From Mycobacterium leprae TN (lineage in GTDB: Bacteria > Actinomycetota > Actinomycetes > Mycobacteriales > Mycobacteriaceae), in NCBI RefSeq assembly GCF_000195855.1, contig NC_002677.1, positions 2,490,001-2,522,000 of the forward strand: a stretch of DNA of 32,000 nucleotides. The letters are read 5' to 3'. Position numbers and translations under genes: made by a program. The notes beneath the pieces were generated by a model that was given only the letters and a program-made list of their open reading frames with translations, ran no database searches and had not been told where the DNA came from. Every line of letters begins with the position of its first letter. Position 1 is the stretch's first letter. Positions 5,876 through 29,513 of this stretch are shown here, piece by piece.

Positions 5876-6560
5876 TTACCGGTTCAGGAGTTGACCAGGC
5901 AATGTGTGCCGTTGCATTCGACGGAGCGCAGGAACGCGTCGGTGACTCTGACCGACAGGTTGAAAAAGAAAGCTCACTGTGTCTTTACATTTTGATGGTA
6001 ACGAAGTAATAAATATCCGAATGTGATTACGTCGAGGACCGCCATGCATGCACCGTGGCAACGACCACCGATCGAAACCACATATGCCGCCATGTTAAAC
6101 AGTTAAAGGTAAAGAATTCGGCACCCTCGCGGTGCCGGCTGTAGTGGGACACTCGATCCTCGACGGGTCACAGGTAAACAAAAGTGTAACCAACGCCCCC
6201 GCAAGTGCGTTGGATCCCGACAGCATGTCCAAGAATCATGAAGATCGAGTGCAGCTAATTTTCCACAGGCAGAGCCAAACATACAGAGAGCAGGCCGATG
6301 TTGGTGCCCGCGTTCATCAGCATGGGCGAGTTCGGCAGAAATTCAAGATCGCGCAGCAGCGCCGAGAAGCGCTCTGCCCACCACACCGAGGTGACACTCT
6401 GGTCCCCATCCTTGGCACCCGTGGCGAAGGACGCCACTTAGTCCATTATCTCTACCAATCGACTCGGTCGACCTAACGTGCTCGTCGCACAGGAGATAAT
6501 CGTTTCTACGGTACCACCACTGCATACAGGCCCAGTTTCAGCTCGTCACACACCCCGAAC
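5876..6560 (-). pseudogene. nrdZ: Class II (B12-dependent) ribonucleotide reductase pseudogene, N-terminal third only, 3'-truncated
   Basis: Minus-strand fragments read YLLCDEH..., WAERFSALLRDLEFLPNSPMLMNAGTNIGLLSVCLALPVE, SIFMILGHAVGIQRTCGGVGYTF and SHSDIYYFVT. These correspond to the RNR motifs FLPNSPTLMNAG, LSACFVLP, GGGxGxxFS and HPDI. They are split across frames with stops. No further RNR sequence lies between 5876 and the mntH stop. Confidence 0.7.
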
Positions 6561-14072: not shown

Positions 14073-14653
14073 GCGCCGGACCGGTAGTTGGTGGCCGGAT
14101 ATCTGACAATTCCGGAGTATCCGATCAGTTACGTAGTTTTCGCCCACGGCAATGGCAGCAGCTCCCGCAACCACTATAAGTATCCGAGGTCTTGAATACA
14201 GCAGGTTTGCCACCCTGCTGTTCGATCTGCTCACCCCTGACGAGGAGCGCGACCGCGCCAACGTCTTTGATGTCGAATTACTGGAGCGACGGTTGAGTAG
14301 ATATCACCGGCTGGCTAGACAGCCCGATACCGCGACACTTCTGGTTCGGCTACTTCGGTGCGAGCACCGGGGCAGGTGCTGCGCTGGCCGTCGTGGCCGA
14401 TCCCCGCCGTGAGGGTAGCGGCGGTGGTGTAGCGCGGCGGGTGACCTGACCTGGCTAGGCTAGGTCTTGACCAAGGTTCGCTCACCCACGCTGCTAGGTT
14501 GTGAGCTGATATGGTGAAGTCTGAATCGTCGGGCGGGGTCGGTGATACCTGGCACGCACGAAATCGTCGTGGTTTCCCAGCTCCACCCACCTCTTCGAAG
14601 AACCAGGCACCCTCGAGTGGGTCGCGGTGTTTGCCCCGCGACCGGTTCACTGA
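14073..14653 (+). pseudogene. Decayed dienelactone-hydrolase-like C-terminal domain of the PRTase gene
   Basis: Domain pieces lie in three frames: GYLTIPEYPISYVVFAHGNGSS, FATLLFDLLTPDEERDRANVFDVELL, GYFGASTGAGAALAVVADP and STHLFEEPGTLEWVA. Several stops interrupt them. From 14357 onward this sequence is repeat copy B. Confidence 0.65.
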
Positions 14654-16976: not shown

Positions 16977-17500
16977 TCATCGAAAGTCCTTAGCCGACGA
17001 GCGCGCGTCTTTCATCAACAGCATCAGGTACAACAGATCGGTCGGAGAGGCCTCGAACTCGAAGTAGGCGTAGAACGCGTGGACCTCATCGTGTAGCACA
17101 CACACACAAGAATCGCCCACATCCCCCCGATTGAGTCCGTGGCCTGGGACACAGCGACCGATCGCATCACGCAGCCAGATGGCTACCCAGGACCCCGCCC
17201 TGTTATTTGTTTACGATCAACTGCCAACCTCGACAGCAGGATCACCGGAACCGGTTCAAGCATATCGCTATACATCCTTCCCGGAGCATTAGCACACGCA
17301 CCAGACCCTGACACTAAGCATAGAAGCCGACCATCCGACCGTTGCGGCACATCACGAAACAGCGCAACCCGACCTGGGACATGGTTGGCAAACCCCCGAT
17401 TGCGCAAGTAACCGTCCCAGATTGGGCTTCCCACTACTAAAGTTCGCGACGTCATCGGCGCCGTTGATCAGTCGCGGCACACTATAGCCGCTCACACCTA
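16977..17500 (-). pseudogene. GNAT acetyltransferase toxin (TacT-type) pseudogene
   Basis: Minus-strand pieces read DDVANFSSGKPNL, YLRNRGFANHVPGR, VPVILLSRLAVDRKQITGRG (acetyl-CoA loop RLAVD..QGxGxG) and the C-terminal DEVHAFYAYFEFEASPTDLLYLMLLMKD. They lie in three frames with stops. Confidence 0.65.
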
Positions 17501-17790
17501 GGTGTCGAAAATGGACCATTCGGCAAAATCGCTTCTCTAACCGAGGCTTGTGTAAGACGAATCGGTCCAACACGGCCAGGAACTCAGTCCACACGGCGTC
17601 GGGGAGCACGAAGAGTCGGCGGTCGGCCTATAACAACGTCGCGCGCGTGCGCCAACACCAAGGTAATTGTGAAATTGGTGAAGTCAATCCCCTCAACCTC
17701 AGCGGCACAACGAATCACCGCGTCCTGCTTAGAGTTCAGAAGCGCTGCAAGACGCTCAGGCCTTGGTAAGACCTTCTCTATTGAGCACCT
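17500..17790 (-). pseudogene. DUF1778 (TacA-type) antitoxin pseudogene
   Basis: ERLAALLNSKQDAVIRCAAEVEGIDFTNFTITLVLAHARDVV shows the RHH antitoxin pattern. A frameshift leads into ADRRLFVLPDAVWTEFLAVLDRFVLHKPRLEKRF, the DUF1778 C-terminal pattern. It lies directly upstream of the GNAT toxin remnant. Confidence 0.55.
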
Positions 17791-17809
17791 AAGACAAGCG
17801 TACAAGTCA

Positions 17810-22290: not shown

Positions 22291-22538
22291 CGACGGAATG
22301 CCGCAGACTCCGCTGCAAGCGCAATCGGACTATGAGCGGCCTGCAAATGTACAGGATCAGGAAGTCGGAGTAACAGTGGACAACCAGAAAGGGCGCCGGA
22401 CAACACATTGACCCAGGGAGTTGGCGTCGGTCGACACCATTCCGTTTTACTCGCCGCTCGTCAAATTTCAAAGATACAGTGCAGTCTTACTGTGAACTGT
22501 TGAGGCTTCACACTTTACCATACGGTCGTCCTGAGACT

Positions 22539-22973
22539 TCACAGACTGGACCGACCGGCGGCCACTGCCGCGATTACTGCCCACACCGAGCACACCATAG
22601 CGCATACCGCTCCTGCTGCACCGAGATATAACCCGCATTCGGCGACCACCGGCGGATTGACATTGAGCTGGTAATACCACACCACAATCACCACGATGAG
22701 CAATGAAATGATCAGCGCAGCAATCGAAGCAACCTTGACCGATAGTCCGCGACCCATCATCGCCCCGGCCACCAGCAGCGTCGACGACAGTAACACGATG
22801 AGCTGGCCCGCACCAAAGCCGGACGGAAGTTCCAGATTGCCGTGTGTGCCGCCAATAGCGTTGGCCCAGCCTTCGTCGTTTACCTTCGTCGTAAGCCACG
22901 GTATCCAGACGCTGATCAAGACGATCGTGGCAAAAAACGCTACCAGCCAACCAAGGCGCAGTCGGTGGATCAT
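22539..22973 (-). CDS. Conserved small integral membrane protein (about 4 TM helices)
   Basis: Intact 144-aa ORF with an ATG start and four clear hydrophobic segments. It sits in the syntenic slot of an M. tuberculosis transmembrane protein of about 148 aa. No catalytic motif was recognised. Confidence 0.7.
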   Translation of the reverse strand: MIHRLRLGWLVAFFATIVLISVWIPWLTTKVNDEGWANAIGGTHGNLELPSGFGAGQLIVLLSSTLLVAGAMMGRGLSVKVASIAALIISLLIVVIVVWYYQLNVNPPVVAECGLYLGAAGAVCAMVCSVWAVIAAVAAGRSSL

Positions 22974-23029
22974 GGTTGCGACCCTAGTAGAGTGTCCGGC
23001 CAGTCTTGCGGTCGGTGTGCGGCGTGTGT

Positions 23030-23800
23030 AACTACTTCTGCAGCAAAGACAAGCCTAGAACCACACCATGTCGGATCGGTCACCTCAGCAAACTGACCGT
23101 AGGGGATGTCCTCAGCCGCACGCAAAACGACGCTGCTATGTTTTATGCTCACCTACAACGTTTTATCAATACCCCCAGCAGCAAAAATAGCCCAATTCGA
23201 CGAAATACCACCCAGCACAAAAGCAGCGCTGTCCATCACGCTGAGAAGTTGTTACTAACCGAAAAAATTCCTTGGTGGAACGGAATTCTTCTTTGTCAGA
23301 ATTCTGCTAGGCCCGTCAGCCGAAGAGCTCGCGAAAGAACCCGAAAGCGGCTAAGTAATCGCATGTGGAACATTGGTGCCAGACGAACACGGCAGTTTCG
23401 CCGATTACCTCGACGCCACGGTGTTCGAAGTGGCTTTCACAAACCAAACGACGCTCCCGACCAGTCAGTCGCCATGAAGCCCTTAGCGGGTATTTCCATC
23501 GTGACCATACCTATCGGGCCATTCGCCGCAGGGACCGCGAACACGATTGCGTTGATATCGCTGGTGCGGAAGTCAGGTGGCCCAGTTGTCAGGAGACTGC
23601 ATCTCAGACCGGTTGGCCATAAGGACAGCGACCCGGTGACCGTCCTTTGGGACAATTGATGTATCCACCTTACTACGGTCCGTCAGACTCAAACTTACAG
23701 CTAAGTACCGTGCCGTAGAATCATGGGCGCGTTCAACATCCGACGACATCAAATCGACCAACAGGGGGGCGCCCAGCAGTACACTGTTACGGCTGGGCAT
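23030..23800 (-). pseudogene. Glyoxalase / VOC-family protein pseudogene
   Basis: ATG at 23800 gives MPSRNSVLLGAPLLVDLMSSDVERA (VOC N-terminal GAPxWVDLxxxD pattern). DGHRVAVLMAN follows, and after a frameshift comes SDINAIVFAVPAANGPIGMVTMEIPAKGFMATDWSGASFGLW. The second half is badly decayed. Confidence 0.6.
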
Positions 23801-23869
23801 GATGACTTGCTCGTGGTGTATGTCTCTGACAATGAGGGTTGAACGATCGACTCGCACCAAACCAGAAAG

Positions 23870-24394
23870 TCACAGCCCGGCCGATGCTGACCGCTGTTCG
23901 ACGACGGCCCTACTATGCTGGTCAACGACGAGCGCCCGACTCCTAATCAGGCCAGGTTCCGGTCGCGAGAACGCCGTGACAAAGTTCTGTAACGATTCGC
24001 GGATATCAGTTCGCAGCGCAACGGCGACGATCATCCCTATCGGTCCAAACAGCGCGGAGCCACCCAGATGCACATCAAAGCTGACGACAGAGCCGTCGTC
24101 CTTAGGCGAAACCTTAGCAATCAGCTTGACCTTGACACCGCCAACACCGTCGCCGTTGAGCGTCATGGCCTCAGGCGCTTTGTAACGCACAACCGTCCAT
24201 CTGATCCGGTTGGGCATGCCCTTGACCTCGACATAGGACTCGATGACCGTGCCCTTCTCCACCACTTCAGGCAACTTGCTGCGCCACGCCCGGTGAATCG
24301 TTAGCCATTCACCGAAGCGGGCCAGATCGGAGGCACACATCCAGGCCTCATTCGGTGGCAGTGGTACGTCGATAGATCCGGTGAGTTTCGCCAT
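23870..24394 (-). CDS. SRPBCC (START/polyketide-cyclase-like) protein; homologues are annotated as the toxin partner of a two-gene module in M. tuberculosis
   Basis: Intact ORF of 174 aa from ATG 24394 (MAKLTGSIDVPLPPNEAW...), or 181 aa from GTG 24415, which overlaps the upstream ORF stop as GTGA. The composition is typical SRPBCC beta-rich. The C-terminal roughly 30 aa look like an unconserved read-through tail. Confidence 0.8.
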   Translation of the reverse strand: MAKLTGSIDVPLPPNEAWMCASDLARFGEWLTIHRAWRSKLPEVVEKGTVIESYVEVKGMPNRIRWTVVRYKAPEAMTLNGDGVGGVKVKLIAKVSPKDDGSVVSFDVHLGGSALFGPIGMIVAVALRTDIRESLQNFVTAFSRPEPGLIRSRALVVDQHSRAVVEQRSASAGL

Positions 24395-24411
24395 GCGCTT
24401 AATTCTGCTGG

Positions 24412-24582
24412 TCACCCAAAAGTGTCAAAGCTAGCGGCCTTCTTGGTCTCTTCAGCTACCTGATAGATAGTGTCAGTGTACTTGCCTTTCGCCTTTTCGT
24501 CGACGAACTCGCCGGCCTTATCGAGCACCGTTTCGACTTTGTCAGCATTCTGCACCAGTATGTCCTTTGCTTTGTCCAGCAC
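24412..24582 (-). CDS. Small helical 56-aa protein of the mycobacterial antitoxin-like family, paired with the SRPBCC gene
   Basis: It is below the 60-aa cut-off of the supplied ORF track. GTG at 24582 gives [56 protein letters not shown], then TGA at 24414-24412. An in-frame TAG lies three codons upstream, so GTG is the only available start. The lysine- and glutamate-rich helical repeat is typical of this family. Confidence 0.65.
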
Positions 24583-24687
24583 TCTACATACCTATGTCCT
24601 TCCCCATCAATTCCCCGGGACTCTTAGTGCTGATGGCATCCTACTTGCCAGATTGTTATCAGCCTAGCTAGCCCCTGCCGGGTTACC

Positions 24688-26698
24688 TTAACAACCACGG
24701 TTGTACACCAAGCTTCCTGTCCCAAATCGCCATATTGCCTCGATCACTATGGAGCCGAGACAGCCGATGCCCAGTACGGTTGATATCAACCACGAGATTC
24801 GACGGGCCCAGGAAGAACTTTTCTGAGTCAGCGGCACCCTGAAGATCGCCACATAGACCAAACCCGAGCCAATGACCAACACCAACCACCACCGCCGGCA
24901 TGCAGTGACATCACAGCAAATACCCATAGCGCAGTCACCAACAACGTGAACAGCGCCGCTGTCGACACTTGATCCTGTTAACAACGCCCGTATTAGGCCA
25001 ACAAATGGGAGACAAAAATCGCGTCGCCGACCGACTAGACCGGACGGCAGCACTGACTTCCGCACCCGGCGGGCGAAGCCATGGTAAGCGCACTCGTTGT
25101 TAGGTGCCAACGAATGAATGACGTATTCCGATCGTGAACCACACCACGATGGTGGCGTGGATTGGCCGAAACGGATACAGCAGCAAGTCGATGTTGAATA
25201 GTTTAAAAAGCAAACATTCGGTGGCAACCAGCAGAATCAAATACACCGTCTTAGCCAAAACCAGATCGACCACCCGCTCGATGTTCCCGCTTATCCGGAG
25301 GCACTAGCAAACAACGTAAAGCAGCTTGGCAAAAATGTTATCCAGCAACACCATCTGAGCCACCGTGCAGGATACGGAGCTGCCCGCACCCATCTTGACG
25401 CCGATATCGGCATCCTTAAGCGTCAACACGTCGTTGAAACCTTCGTTAGCCATCACGATGGTATGACCGGGCGATGGCAGGGCACGCACGGCGACGCGTT
25501 TTTGCTCGGATCGCACACGACCGAACATGGTTCTGCTTCTCCAGCGCGTCAGCCAGTTCGGCTTATCCCGGAGGTAGGTTAAGAAAGTCCATCGTATCGC
25601 CATGCAGCCTGAGCTTACTGGCGATGACACCGACAGATACAGCGTTATCTTCTAAAATTTCCTACACCAAAACATACTGGACAAGAGAATATTTCATAGT
25701 CTCTCAGGAATCTTGTCGCACCTTGCTCCAGCACCACCAGCGCGACCGGGGCGACACGGCCCGGTTCGTTAGGATGATCGACAATCACGTAGCTGGCATT
25801 GGGGCGGGCACCGGCAATTACCAGCAAGGACAACACCTCCGGACCACCTTCTCGTTAGGACCTTTGGACAGTCAGATCCTCAACAAAGCAGACACGCATG
25901 CCGGTTTCAGTCAAGGTGTCGTTCTTGTACACACAGATCACATCGACCCGGGCTAACCCTTCGATAGCTGGCAACTCTTGCACCAAGCATTGACGTTGAT
26001 CCAGCCTGATGCAGCAGACCGCGAAAGCAATCGACGTGATCAATACCAGTTCTGCTAATACCATCGGGACCAGCGCACCCACCATCCGCAACACAGACAA
26101 CCACCACCCTGCAAGTGCGGTGAACAACTGTGTGTAGATAGTTAGCAGACACGCCGGCACCAACAGTTAAGTGATGAACTGCAGGAACCGGCTAATAGCT
26201 TTGTGCAGTTCGAATTTCACCAGGGTGCACTTTCTGTCCTCCCCTGCCAGTTGGACGGCATAGGCTTGCAGGCCCACCATGGTGGCGCAATAGGAACCGG
26301 TACCGGGCACGACAAAACTACCCGACATCACCGCATCACCGATACCCTTGGGAATCAGCTCCGCCGCGCCGGACAGAAGAATTCGAGTGTTTGATTACCT
26401 GCGCACCAAAAATTTCTCCTACCCAACGATCGCCAACTGGTCCAGCGTCTGCTTGGCCCGACCCTTATTGGATCATGCCGATGTTACTGAGCAAACCAAA
26501 CAACCCGTTGATCGCCGACCGTCGCCAAAGCGATCATCAGCAACACGCCCAGGATCACATCGATCCGGGTAAATACGTTGACCCGCAGGGTGTCCGTTAT
26601 GTTTCATACGGAGCGTCGCACAAGGCGTTGCTCTTGCCCTCGGCAATGCTTCACGCCACCTCAGCATCGGTCAAGCCACCTGGCGACGATAAGGTCAT
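24688..26698 (-). pseudogene. ctpE: P-type cation-transporting ATPase pseudogene
   Basis: ATG at 26698 gives MTLSSPGGLTDAEVA, then an in-frame TGA. Further pieces are [31 protein letters not shown]...[27 protein letters not shown] (phosphorylation motif DKTGT degraded to YKNDT) and [30 protein letters not shown] (hinge GDGxNDxPAL degraded). Many frameshifts are present. Confidence 0.8.
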
Positions 26699-28769: not shown

Positions 28770-29513
28770 TCATGCCCCCTGAAACTTAGGTGGCCGTTTC
28801 TCCACCCGGGCGACCTGCGCTTCGATGACATCCTGGCTGGTCCAGGCCTTGTCAAAGAGCTTCTTGTGCTCCGGCCACGCCTCTTCGATAGAGCCGTCGT
28901 CGTTGAGTACCCGCTTGGCGTGCTGGATCGCCAGTGGTGCTAGGCCGGTGACCTCGGCGGCCCAGGCCTGGGCGTCGGCCAGTGCACCGATGCGATTGGC
29001 CATCCCGGTCTGCAGCGCGATGTCGGCGGTCAACTTCTCCGCCGTCAGCAGCATCGCGCGGGCCCGGCCGTGACCAACCAACGAAGACAGTCGGCGAATA
29101 CTCCAGTTGTCAAGGGCCAAACCATATTTCGAGGTAGGAAACTGAAAATACGCATCCGGTGCAACAACCCGCAGATCACATTGCATGGCCAACTGTAGAC
29201 CAGCACCGATGGCGGGCCCGTTAATAGCGCCAATTACCGGCATCGGAACAGCATCCATGACCCTGTGTAACTCGATCAGCCGGTCAGGGTAGTCAGCGGC
29301 AAACGCATCTCCGCTCAGATCCGCGCCGGCACAGAACACCGTGCCCTGGCCAGTCAACACAATCACACGGGTAGACACCTCACTGTCGGCGCTACTAGCT
29401 TTCTGCACAGCCTCCCGCAGCTTCTCGATAAGTTGCGAATTCAGGGCATTGCGGCGCTCGGGACGCTGCAGCTCGATAGTCATAACGCCTTCGGCCTGAG
29501 TAATACCTATCAT
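28770..29513 (-). CDS. echA6: Enoyl-CoA hydratase/isomerase (crotonase) family protein EchA6
   Basis: Intact 247-aa ORF with an ATG start. It shows the crotonase fold signature ([36 protein letters not shown]). Its position matches echA6 between the MBL-fold gene and accD3. Confidence 0.9.

What the first reader, a model, noticed from the sequence alone, without database searches (positions are those of the whole stretch)
23870..24582. An intact two-gene SRPBCC plus small-helical-protein module survives, with an unlisted 56-aa ORF and GTGA coupling
A 56-codon ORF (24582-24412, minus strand) is missing from the ORF track. It encodes a lysine- and glutamate-rich helical protein ([50 protein letters not shown]...). 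Its TGA overlaps a GTG that opens the downstream SRPBCC ORF.

Homologous pairs in M. tuberculosis (Rv0909/Rv0910, from memory) are annotated as a putative antitoxin/toxin pair. Both genes are uninterrupted here, although both neighbours (the VOC gene and ctpE) are destroyed, as is the bona fide TacAT module 6 kb away.

Retention in a genome under massive reductive pressure suggests a housekeeping or stress role rather than a dispensable addiction module. Alternatively, the pair may be genuinely hard to lose.
Basis: partly seen in the sequence, partly recalled or inferred. Interest (0 to 1): 0.6.

Follow-up and report, generated by a model that had tools for sequence, protein, structure and literature searches.

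The report
M. leprae ML2113/ML2114 lipid-binding gene pair
This is the already annotated leprosy-bacillus copy of the mycobacterial Rv0909/Rv0910 pair: the larger gene is a well-preserved lipid-carrier-binding protein rather than a poison, and the small upstream gene is frayed at both ends and is dispensable in related species.

Summary
Both ORFs exist as described. The window is M. leprae and the genes are ML2114 (56 aa, Pfam MT0933_antitox) and ML2113 (SRPBCC, NCBIfam Rv0910-family "toxin"), both annotated since 2001. Their conservation in every mycobacterial genome analysed, M. leprae included, was published in 2009.

ML2113 is clearly maintained. Its 145-codon core has no indels, while neighbouring pseudogenes carry about 10 per kb. 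It is 92.4% identical to M. lepromatosis, dN/dS is 0.22, and Trp30 is kept.

"Intact" is too generous for ML2114:
- A 7-bp deletion removed its ancestral ATG.
- A 1-bp insertion cut off its last residues. That shift also created the GTGA overlap.
- The conserved ML2113 start is the ATG at 24394.
- Neutral evolution cannot be rejected (dN/dS about 0.4).

The small gene is deleted in M. haemophilum and missing or shrunk in 10 of 79 metagenome loci, all with an intact SRPBCC gene. This argues against an addiction module and agrees with published work recasting Rv0910 as an acyl-AcpM-binding protein.

My inferred addition is untested. The SRPBCC gene lacks its own ribosome-binding site and starts 2-5 nt after the small ORF's stop, so the upstream frame may persist mainly for translational coupling.

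The parts
23870..24394 (-). ML2113 coding sequence from the conserved ATG (174 aa): the Rv0910/MSMEG_5634-family SRPBCC/START protein
   Evidence: NF047960 at 2.4e-54 and PF10604 at 1.2e-20, with the profile starting at MAKL. RefSeq WP_197492508.1 is the 174-aa form. It aligns to PDB 7WA9 (MSMEG_5634) over residues 1-142 with E = 1.7e-65.
23960..24394 (-). Conserved 145-codon helix-grip core of ML2113
   Evidence: No indels against M. lepromatosis or M. haemophilum, and 92.4% nucleotide identity to M. lepromatosis. dN/dS is 0.22; the M. leprae branch has 11 synonymous and 7 nonsynonymous changes (p = 0.0012 against neutrality). Trp30 is kept; P113S is unique to M. leprae.
23870..23959 (-). Non-conserved C-terminal tail of ML2113 created by loss of the ancestral stop
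   Evidence: Orthologues end after 145-157 aa. M. lepromatosis differs here by two indels and stops at ..RPERV*. The tail plus intergenic stretch is 86.7% identical with 3 frameshifting gaps.
24412..24582 (-). ML2114, a 56-codon small ORF (PF14013 MT0933_antitox, labelled 'antitoxin'), GTG start and TGA stop
   Evidence: PF14013 at 1.7e-17; CAC31069.1 / Q9CBE3. Over 153 nt it is 88.2% identical to M. lepromatosis with dN/dS 0.39-0.42. It is transcribed in footpad-grown M. leprae (PMC7365477 S5 File).
24584..24589 (-). Site of the 7-bp deletion that removed the ancestral ATG-GGx start. What remains is an out-of-frame ATG (24589-24587) followed directly by TAG (24586-24584).
   Evidence: Alignment with M. 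lepromatosis. The family N-terminus MG[IF]LDKAKDLL is seen in all other orthologues.
24596..24605 (-). GGGGAAGGAC, the Shine-Dalgarno-like element of the small ORF, now 13 nt upstream of the GTG start
   Evidence: Read from the sequence. Duplex energy with the 16S 3' end is -7.2 kcal/mol, against a median of -11.7 for the small-ORF start in 73 other loci.
24412..24421 (-). T-run 24421-24418 carrying a 1-bp insertion, followed by the derived GTGA stop/start overlap at 24415-24412
   Evidence: Alignment with M. lepromatosis. The GTG derives from the ancestral Gly-Asp codons GGT GAC.
24399..24416 (-). Ancestral 3' end of the small gene, still readable in the old frame as G D Q Q N stop (TAA at 24401-24399), 4 nt before the ATG at 24394
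   Evidence: Read from the sequence. The family C-terminus is ..GDQQN. Stop-to-ATG spacing is 2-5 nt in 70 of 74 loci.
24683..26698 (-). ctpE (Rv0908-type P-type ATPase) pseudogene upstream
   Evidence: 79.9% identity to M. haemophilum ctpE, with 17 gap events of which 12 are frameshifting.
23032..23800 (-). VOC/glyoxalase (Rv0911-type) pseudogene downstream
   Evidence: 78.5% identity to the M. haemophilum gene, with 8 gap events of which 6 are frameshifting.

Best explanation
ML2113 is a functional, selectively maintained START/SRPBCC protein. [quoted passage not shown] It is retained because it serves a cell-envelope lipid pathway, not because it is a toxin that must be neutralised.

ML2114 is the eroding remnant of the small helical-protein gene that precedes it throughout the genus Mycobacterium. 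It is still open, carries the full Pfam domain and is transcribed. Its ancestral start and C-terminus are gone, and its sequence constraint is relaxed.

The SRPBCC gene has no ribosome-binding site of its own and begins a few bases after the small ORF's stop. I therefore infer that ribosomes reach it by termination-reinitiation. On this reading, the upstream frame is kept open in M. leprae mainly to deliver ribosomes to ML2113.

Shown here: family membership, purifying selection on ML2113, the terminal lesions in ML2114, repeated loss of the small gene elsewhere, and the coupling-type gene architecture.

Inferred only: acyl-AcpM binding by ML2113 (by orthology to published work) and translational coupling as the reason the upstream ORF persists.
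For: Family and structure:
- NF047960 at 183 bits, PF10604 and PF14013.
- Alignment to the MSMEG_5634 crystal structure 7WA9 at E = 1.7e-65, with the functionally essential Trp30 conserved.

Selection on ML2113:
- Core with 0 indels, 92.4% identity to M. lepromatosis and dN/dS 0.22.
- The M. leprae branch has 11 synonymous and 7 nonsynonymous changes (p = 0.0012 against neutrality).
- Intact neighbours echA and the 144-aa membrane protein are 92.9% and 91.5% identical. Eight flanking pseudogenes are 77.7-88.7% identical with roughly 10 indels per kb.

Relaxation of ML2114:
- Two indels fall within the ancestral 189-nt gene, which is the pseudogene density, and both sit at its ends.
- Identity is 88.2% and dN/dS about 0.4 (p = 0.066).
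- T31A, A46T and L8I fall at positions that are over 90% conserved.

Small gene dispensable:
- It is deleted in M. haemophilum, where ctpE and VOC are intact, and absent in Bu41.
- It is missing or reduced in 10 of 79 metagenome loci.
- All 12 such loci keep a 145-157-aa SRPBCC ORF with Trp30.
- The M. haemophilum SRPBCC still evolves at dN/dS 0.06-0.12.

Coupling architecture:
- Stop-to-ATG spacing is 2-5 nt in 70 of 74 loci.
- Shine-Dalgarno (SD) pairing energy has a median of -4.4 kcal/mol at the SRPBCC start and -11.7 at the small-ORF start (p = 3e-24).
- Five independent loci keep in-frame mini-ORFs of 23-35 aa with the native MG[IF]LD start and native stop.
- In Bu41 the upstream gene reads through to that stop.
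- Complete losses bring an SD close to the start (GGAGGGA in L077, GGGAG in L056).

Published work:
- Li 2022 found no toxicity, no MSMEG_5634-MSMEG_5635 interaction, and acyl-AcpM binding.
- The 2026 review section 'Redefining the function of Rv0910' summarises this.

Expression:
- ML2113 (14281) and ML2114 (6207) are transcribed in mouse-footpad M. leprae at levels above many housekeeping genes.
Against: - Ramage et al. 2009 reported growth inhibition by Rv0910 and MSMEG_5634, rescued by the upstream gene. The conflict with Li 2022 is not resolved.
- The small protein is strongly conserved in most mycobacteria (dN/dS about 0.10-0.15 between intact lineages). It is therefore a real protein there and not just a leader.
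- The M. leprae copy keeps 48 of 49 Pfam positions and appears to have gained a replacement GTG start through two substitutions. Its M. leprae-branch divergence (4.6%) is closer to that of ML2113 (4.1%) than to pseudogenes. It could still be functional.
- With only 18 substitutions, the dN/dS test has little power.
- In M. leprae the small ORF's stop lies 17 nt before the ATG. This is outside the 2-14 nt range seen elsewhere, so coupling could be weakened.
- Translational coupling was not tested.
- No protein-level evidence for either gene was found with the tools available.
- M. leprae transcribes many pseudogenes, so RNA evidence is weak.
- ML2113 carries P113S at a position where 78 of 79 orthologues have Pro, and a non-native tail.
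- A PF14013 paralogue elsewhere in the M. haemophilum genome could not be excluded.
Confidence: 0.55

Rival explanations
1. Both genes are still fully functional partners, though not a toxin-antitoxin pair. The small helical protein has a conserved cellular role alongside the SRPBCC protein, and the trimmed N- and C-termini in M. leprae are tolerated cosmetic changes.
For: - The Pfam domain is 48/49 complete.
- A replacement in-frame GTG start sits exactly at the former Ile3 codon.
- The central 51 codons have no indel or stop.
- M. leprae-branch divergence is 4.6%, similar to ML2113.
- The family is strongly conserved in most species.
- The transcript is present.
- The C-terminal residues are the most variable part of the family.
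Against: - dN/dS of about 0.4 on the leprosy branches is three to four times the background.
- Substitutions occur at over 90%-conserved positions in both leprosy bacilli.
- Both indels sit inside the ancestral gene.
- The gene is repeatedly lost or reduced to mini-ORFs elsewhere with no effect on the SRPBCC gene.
- Li 2022 found no interaction between the M. smegmatis orthologues.
Confidence: 0.25
2. ML2114 is a young pseudogene that happens to remain open. It is not translated, and ML2113 is translated independently.
For: - The ancestral ATG is lost through a 7-bp deletion and the 3' end is frameshifted, giving two indels in 189 nt, which matches the local pseudogene density.
- The SD element is weaker and distant (-7.2 kcal/mol, 13 nt from the GTG).
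- Identity is intermediate at 88.2%, and neutrality is not rejected.
- The gene is dispensable in M. haemophilum.
Against: - ML2113 has essentially no SD of its own (-1.4 kcal/mol at the ATG, -0.7 at the GTG). An untranslated upstream region would leave no evident way to start translation of a gene that is clearly under selection.
- Two substitutions created an in-frame GTG exactly where the start was lost.
- The 51 core codons contain no stop or indel.
- Remnants of the small ORF are retained in frame in other lineages.
Confidence: 0.12
3. The pair is a genuine type II toxin-antitoxin module, as first proposed for Rv0909-Rv0910. It is kept in M. leprae because loss of the antitoxin would release a growth-inhibiting toxin.
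For: - Ramage et al. 2009 reported growth inhibition by Rv0910 and MSMEG_5634, relieved by the upstream gene.
- The NCBIfam and UniProt names follow this.
- The layout resembles TA operons: a small upstream gene tightly linked to a larger downstream gene.
Against: - Intact SRPBCC genes exist without the small gene in M. haemophilum, Bu41 and 10 metagenome loci, and the M. haemophilum SRPBCC gene is still under purifying selection (dN/dS 0.06-0.12).
- Li 2022 found no toxicity and no complex, and the MSMEG_5634 deletion mutant was viable.
- The locus is vertically inherited and syntenic across the genus, not patchy or island-borne.
- The small protein has no recognisable DNA-binding domain.
- There is no PADLOC hit.
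- In M. leprae it is the 'antitoxin', not the 'toxin', that is decaying.
Confidence: 0.08

Closest known systems
Rv0909-Rv0910 of M. tuberculosis and MSMEG_5635-MSMEG_5634 of M. smegmatis (Ramage 2009; Li 2022; PDB 7WA9)
   Same: - Direct orthologues by NCBIfam equivalog model NF047960 and Pfam PF14013.
- Same position between ctpE and the VOC gene.
- Same gene order.
- Trp30 of the acyl-AcpM-binding helix is conserved.
   Different: - In M. leprae the small gene has lost its ATG, Gly2 and last 5-6 residues.
- The stop-to-ATG distance is 17 nt instead of 2-5.
- The SRPBCC protein has a 22-29-residue non-native tail and a unique P113S change.
- Flanking operon partners are pseudogenes. In M. 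smegmatis the pair is co-transcribed with six upstream genes.
M. haemophilum and M. lepromatosis orthologous loci
   Same: They are the closest relatives found, with SRPBCC cores 89-92% identical at the nucleotide level, the same synteny and no indels.
   Different: - M. lepromatosis keeps the native start and stop of the small gene, but has 7 nonsynonymous changes and a truncated SRPBCC tail.
- M. haemophilum has deleted the small gene altogether while keeping ctpE and VOC intact.
PasT/RatA of E. coli and Rv1546 of M. tuberculosis (other SRPBCC/START proteins labelled as toxins)
   Same: - They share the SRPBCC fold.
- According to the 2026 review, PasT was, like Rv0910, labelled a toxin of a TA pair.
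- Rv1546 is the next-best PDB match (8H0H, E = 4.5e-31).
   Different: They are paralogous families. The review lists Rv1546 as an RNase and not in an operon with a small upstream gene. Neither has a PF14013 partner.
Translationally coupled gene pairs (termination-reinitiation at closely spaced stop and start codons)
   Same: The downstream gene lacks its own Shine-Dalgarno element and starts 2-5 nt after the upstream stop. The upstream reading frame is preserved even where its coding content has been lost.
   Different: Coupling has not been demonstrated for this pair in any species. In M. leprae the native spacing has been altered.

Membership tests
Rv0910-family SRPBCC/START protein (NCBIfam NF047960; Pfam PF10604) | Profile score above the curated cutoff over the whole domain | tested here: met
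   NF047960 scores 183.1 bits against a cutoff of 100, covering profile positions 1-139 of 141. PF10604 scores 74.7 bits against 27.4.
Rv0910-family SRPBCC/START protein (NCBIfam NF047960; Pfam PF10604) | Sequence-level match to the solved helix-grip structure of MSMEG_5634, with Trp30 in helix alpha2 (needed for acyl-AcpM binding) | tested here: met
   7WA9 matches at E = 1.7e-65 over residues 1-142. The motif FGEW aligns to YHEW with Trp30 kept. The ML2113 fold itself was not modelled.
Rv0910-family SRPBCC/START protein (NCBIfam NF047960; Pfam PF10604) | Conserved genomic position between ctpE and the VOC/glyoxalase gene | tested here: met
   The same order is seen in M. haemophilum, L006 and L007. 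In M. leprae both flanking genes are pseudogenes. In M. ulcerans (L008) the VOC gene is downstream but transposase and PPE genes lie upstream.
Rv0910-family SRPBCC/START protein (NCBIfam NF047960; Pfam PF10604) | Binds long-chain acyl-AcpM and modulates sensitivity to FAS-II inhibitors | not testable with these tools
   This is known only for MSMEG_5634 and Rv0910 (PMC9014085).
MT0933/Rv0909-like small protein (Pfam PF14013) | Profile score above the gathering threshold | tested here: met
   63.8 bits against a threshold of 27, covering profile positions 1-48 of 49.
MT0933/Rv0909-like small protein (Pfam PF14013) | Native ends of the mycobacterial orthologues: MG[IF]LDKAKDLL start and ..GDQQN stop | tested here: not met
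   A 7-bp deletion removes ATG-GGx, and a 1-bp insertion truncates the C-terminus.
MT0933/Rv0909-like small protein (Pfam PF14013) | Stop codon 2-5 nt upstream of the SRPBCC ATG | tested here: not met
   The spacing holds in 70 of 74 loci. In M. leprae the distance is 17 nt, or a 4-nt overlap with a non-conserved GTG.
Type II toxin-antitoxin system | Toxin inhibits growth and the cognate antitoxin neutralises it | not testable with these tools
   Published results conflict: Ramage 2009 found this, Li 2022 did not.
Type II toxin-antitoxin system | Toxin and antitoxin form a direct complex | not testable with these tools
   Pull-down was negative for MSMEG_5634 and MSMEG_5635. Not tested for the M. 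leprae proteins.
Type II toxin-antitoxin system | An intact toxin gene is not found without its antitoxin | tested here: not met
   Twelve loci have a full-length SRPBCC gene but no full small gene: M. haemophilum, Bu41 and 10 of 79 metagenome loci. A distant paralogue elsewhere in those genomes could not be excluded.
Type II toxin-antitoxin system | Patchy, horizontally mobile distribution, often in genomic islands | tested here: not met
   The pair is syntenic and vertically inherited in all genome loci examined. Ramage 2009 notes that it is not in an island.

The most novel reading that the evidence does not exclude
Across mycobacteria, the 'antitoxin' reading frame upstream of the Rv0910-family gene is conserved on two levels. 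It is a small protein that many lineages can do without. It is also an obligatory ribosome-delivery ORF for an SRPBCC gene that has no Shine-Dalgarno element of its own. This would explain three things: why M. leprae keeps a frayed ML2114, why other lineages keep 23-35-codon in-frame stubs with the native start and stop, and why complete deletions bring a ribosome-binding site next to the SRPBCC start. On this reading the toxin-antitoxin label for the family is a misnomer.
Probability: 0.35. Interest if true: 0.5.

Novelty: already known. Interest (0 to 1): 0.3.

Why it matters
The pair itself is annotated and its genus-wide conservation is published, so the original finding adds little.

The comparison does add independent, sequence-only evidence to a live disagreement over whether Rv0909-Rv0910 is a toxin-antitoxin system. 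Natural 'antitoxin knock-outs' exist in M. haemophilum and other lineages, each with a conserved 'toxin'. In the leprosy bacillus it is the 'antitoxin' that is eroding.

This supports the view that Rv0910-family proteins are accessory factors of mycolic-acid synthesis. That pathway matters for isoniazid-class drug sensitivity. It also warns against counting this locus among mycobacterial TA modules.

The coupling hypothesis is cheap to test in M. smegmatis.

Tried and rejected
- **Genome scan.** The single-protein scan of genome contigs returned only three loci, not M. leprae itself and not M. tuberculosis.
- **Missing H37Rv sequences.** The M. tuberculosis H37Rv proteins did not appear among the listed homologues. 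An M. tuberculosis-complex-like Logan locus (L007) was used instead.
- **Locus tags in the literature.** Full-text searches for ML2113 and ML2114 found no leprosy paper.
- **Expression supplements.** The supplements of the 2022 M. leprae transcriptome paper and the dual RNA-seq preprint held nothing usable. Only the GSMN-ML supplement gave expression values.
- **Proteomics.** One search for proteomic evidence found no paper likely to list these proteins, and none was opened.
- **Promoter and terminator scan.** It found nothing on the minus strand upstream of the pair.
- **Other searches.** Rfam gave no match on either strand. PADLOC gave no defence-system match. No PDB relative of the small protein was found.
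- **Structure prediction.** The second gave a low-confidence single helix, so no fold search was run.
- **YN00 dN/dS.** It failed on several pairs, so NG86 values and parsimony branch counts were used.
- **Gap counter.** My first version counted each gap base as an event. It was corrected.
- **GTG at 24415 as the real ML2113 start.** Rejected because it is not conserved: other species have GCG at that position in the SRPBCC frame, and all orthologues begin MAKL.
- **Antisense ORFs.** The plus-strand ORFs 23799-24185 and 24068-24304, which overlap ML2113, were not examined individually; I assume they are by-products of GC-rich coding sequence, and no RNA family match was found in the region.
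Full report
**1. What is at the coordinates**

On the minus strand there is a 56-codon ORF at 24582..24412 with a GTG start and a TGA stop. A second ORF runs from a GTG at 24415 to a stop at 23870. The two share the four bases GTGA at 24415-24412.

The small product matches Pfam PF14013 (MT0933-like antitoxin) at 1.7e-17 over 48 of 49 profile positions. The large product matches PF10604 at 1.2e-20. It also matches the NCBIfam equivalog model NF047960, 'type II toxin-antitoxin system Rv0910 family toxin', at 2.4e-54 (183 bits, cutoff 100).

An exact-sequence look-up shows that the window is Mycobacterium leprae. The genes are ML2113 (CAC31068.1, 181 aa; RefSeq WP_197492508.1, 174 aa; UniProt Q50123) and ML2114 (CAC31069.1; Q9CBE3, 'Antitoxin'). 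The two proteins occur unchanged on 257 and 280 public contigs.

**2. How intact the pair really is**

I compared the locus with these relatives:
- M. lepromatosis (L001)
- M. haemophilum (L004, L005)
- an unnamed close relative (L006)
- an M. tuberculosis-complex-like locus (L007)
- M. ulcerans (L008)
- two Mycobacterium genomes assembled from metagenomes (L002, L003)

Three terminal lesions are specific to M. leprae.
- A 7-bp deletion removes the ancestral ATG-GGx of the small gene. Every other orthologue starts MG[IF]LDKAKDLL. The M. leprae ORF starts at a GTG occupying the former Ile3 codon. Just upstream, an out-of-frame ATG is followed at once by TAG.
- A 1-bp insertion in the T-run at 24421-24418 shifts the frame. 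The ORF therefore stops at TGA, and the ancestral ending G-D-Q-Q-N-stop is still readable in the old frame at 24416-24399, 4 nt before the ATG at 24394.
- ML2113 has lost the ancestral stop and runs on for 22-29 residues beyond the 145-157 aa of its orthologues. M. lepromatosis differs in this tail by two indels and stops at ..RPERV, so the tail is not a conserved peptide.

The GTGA overlap is a consequence of the 1-bp insertion. The GTG is the ancestral Gly-Asp pair GGT GAC. In the SRPBCC frame other species have GCG at that position. All orthologues, and the NCBIfam profile, begin at MAKL. The conserved start is therefore the ATG at 24394, 17 nt after the small ORF's stop.

**3. Selection**

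A three-way alignment of about 13 kb with M. haemophilum and M. lepromatosis separates the region cleanly.

| Class | Genes | M. leprae vs M. lepromatosis identity | Indels |
|---|---|---|---|
| Intact | echA; ML2113 core; 144-aa membrane protein | 92.9%; 92.4%; 91.5% | 0 |
| Pseudogene | MBL-fold hydrolase, beta-lactamase, ctpE, VOC, YycE-like, RPE65, thiolase, PPE | 77.7-88.7% | about 10 per kb |

ML2113 core:
- dN/dS against M. lepromatosis is 0.22.
- With outgroups, the M. leprae branch has 11 synonymous and 7 nonsynonymous changes (p = 0.0012 against neutrality).
- Trp30 is conserved. Li et al. showed this residue is required for acyl-AcpM binding by MSMEG_5634.
- Four M. leprae-specific changes fall at positions that are over 90% conserved. 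They include P113S, where 78 of 79 orthologues have Pro.

ML2114:
- The 153 alignable nucleotides are 88.2% identical, which lies between the two classes.
- dN/dS is 0.39-0.42. The M. leprae branch has 3 synonymous and 4 nonsynonymous changes (p = 0.17).
- Both leprosy branches together give p = 0.066. Between intact lineages dN/dS is 0.10-0.15.
- Two indels in the ancestral 189 nt is the local pseudogene density, but both lie at the extreme ends.
- ML2114 is therefore under relaxed constraint. Whether it is still functional cannot be settled from 18 substitutions.

**4. The small gene is dispensable elsewhere**

In M. haemophilum, ctpE (796 aa) and the VOC gene (257 aa) are intact. Only 45 nt separate the ctpE stop from the SRPBCC ATG. 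The small gene has been excised (GGGAAGGACAT|CGACTAAACGC-ATG), which leaves its Shine-Dalgarno (SD) element upstream of the SRPBCC gene. The SRPBCC gene there still evolves at dN/dS 0.06-0.12.

In Mycobacterium sp. Bu41 only the last codons (..GDEQN-stop) remain. They are read in frame from the upstream MBL-fold gene.

A scan of metagenome contigs gave 80 further loci.

| Class | Loci |
|---|---|
| Full small ORF | 69 |
| Uninformative | 1 |
| No full small ORF | 10 |

Among the 10 loci without a full small ORF:
- Five (L011, L064, L071, L079, L087) keep in-frame mini-ORFs of 23-35 codons, with the native MG[IF]LD start and the native stop 2-4 nt before the SRPBCC ATG.
- The other five have lost it. 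L077 has GGAGGGA and L056 has GGGAG close to the start.

All 12 'orphan' loci encode a full-length SRPBCC protein with Trp30.

Two caveats apply. Metagenome loci are not all independent, and a paralogue elsewhere in those genomes cannot be excluded.

**5. Gene architecture**

The small ORF's stop lies 2-5 nt before the SRPBCC ATG in 70 of 74 loci with a full small ORF; the most common spacing is 4 nt.

Predicted pairing with the 16S rRNA 3' end is weak at the SRPBCC start (median -4.4 kcal/mol). It is strong at the small ORF's start (median -11.7; Mann-Whitney p = 3e-24).

| M. leprae start | Pairing energy (kcal/mol) |
|---|---|
| ATG 24394 | -1.4 |
| GTG 24415 | -0.7 |
| Small ORF GTG 24582 | -7.2 |

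This is the layout expected for translational coupling. Together with the in-frame mini-ORFs, it suggests the upstream frame is needed to bring ribosomes to the SRPBCC gene even where the peptide is not needed. This is inference; nothing here measures translation.

**6. Literature**

- Ramage et al. 2009 (PMC2781298) discovered Rv0909-Rv0910 as a 'novel TA system'. They reported it as the only such module present in all mycobacterial genomes analysed, a set that included M. leprae, and noted that it is not in a genomic island. They reported growth inhibition and rescue for the M. tuberculosis and M. smegmatis pairs, with no effect on translation and no RNase activity.
- Li et al. 2022 (PMC9014085) solved the MSMEG_5634 structure, which is PDB entry 7WA9. 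They found no toxicity and no interaction with MSMEG_5635, and showed binding of C36-52 acyl-AcpM that depends on Trp30. The deletion mutant was less sensitive to isoniazid and triclosan, and Rv0910 complemented it.
- A 2026 review (PMC13525633) has a section headed 'Redefining the function of Rv0910'.
- RNA-seq of M. leprae Thai-53 from mouse footpads lists ML2113 at 14281 and ML2114 at 6207. For comparison, tsf is 2269 and atpE is 2489 (PMC7365477, S5 File). M. leprae pseudogene transcription is widely reported (paper titles), so this is weak evidence of function. I found no protein-level data.

**7. Verdict**

- ML2113 is a maintained, probably functional acyl-AcpM-binding START protein.
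- ML2114 is a frayed but open upstream ORF under relaxed constraint.
- The classical addiction-module reading is the least likely. It is the 'antitoxin' that decays or disappears, while the 'toxin' is conserved.
- The pair and its conservation are already known. The modest additions are the natural antitoxin-less loci, the terminal lesions in ML2114, and the coupling hypothesis.

Other checks were negative or uninformative:
- No Rfam match in 23000-25500.
- No PADLOC match.
- No promoter-like site on the minus strand upstream.
- No solved structure related to the small protein.
- A low-confidence single-helix AlphaFold model of ML2114, pLDDT 60.

Noticed in passing
window 17352-17805 (-): A TacA-like antitoxin remnant is split over two reading frames. 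PF08681 profile positions 1-41 lie in 17584-17805 (E = 1e-5) and positions 49-75 in 17352-17609 (E = 0.29). This is a frameshifted pseudogene about 6 kb from ML2113. The three ORF pieces tested further downstream (17183-17455, 17024-17170, 16977-17120, minus strand) gave no Pfam hit.
   Followed up: partly
L004 5956-6000 (M. haemophilum; same in L005): The small 'antitoxin' gene is cleanly deleted between an intact ctpE and an intact SRPBCC gene. Its Shine-Dalgarno element GGGAAGGAC is left 14 nt upstream of the SRPBCC ATG.
   Followed up: yes
L011, L064, L071, L079, L087 (metagenome loci), the 70-110 nt upstream of the SRPBCC ATG: In-frame mini-ORFs of 23-35 codons keep the native MG[IF]LD start and the native ..DQQN-type stop of the small gene but lack its core. 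All sit next to full-length SRPBCC genes.
   Followed up: partly
L002 6342-7997 (Mycobacterium sp. Bu41 metagenome-assembled genome): ctpE, the beta-lactamase gene and the body of the small gene are absent. The upstream MBL-fold gene has lost its own stop and reads through to the small gene's native stop, 3 nt before the SRPBCC ATG.
   Followed up: partly
window 22539-22973 (-) and 28770-29513 (-): Two other genes in this decayed stretch are intact and conserved: a 144-aa predicted membrane protein (91.5% identical to M. lepromatosis) and an enoyl-CoA hydratase (92.9%). Neither has any indel.
   Followed up: partly
window 22376-22534: The YycE-like gene has a 328-nt loss in M. leprae that is absent from M. 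lepromatosis. Part of the decay here therefore happened after the two leprosy bacilli split.
   Followed up: no
L007 5001-5522 (Logan SRR12006560, M. tuberculosis-complex-like locus): The SRPBCC orthologue is 173 aa with a long proline-rich C-terminal tail. Stop-loss tails like that of ML2113 therefore arise more than once in this family.
   Followed up: no
window 24580-24589 (-): Two substitutions (AATT to AGTG) created the in-frame GTG start exactly at the former Ile3 codon, beside the 7-bp deletion that removed the ATG. This could be compensation or chance.
   Followed up: partly
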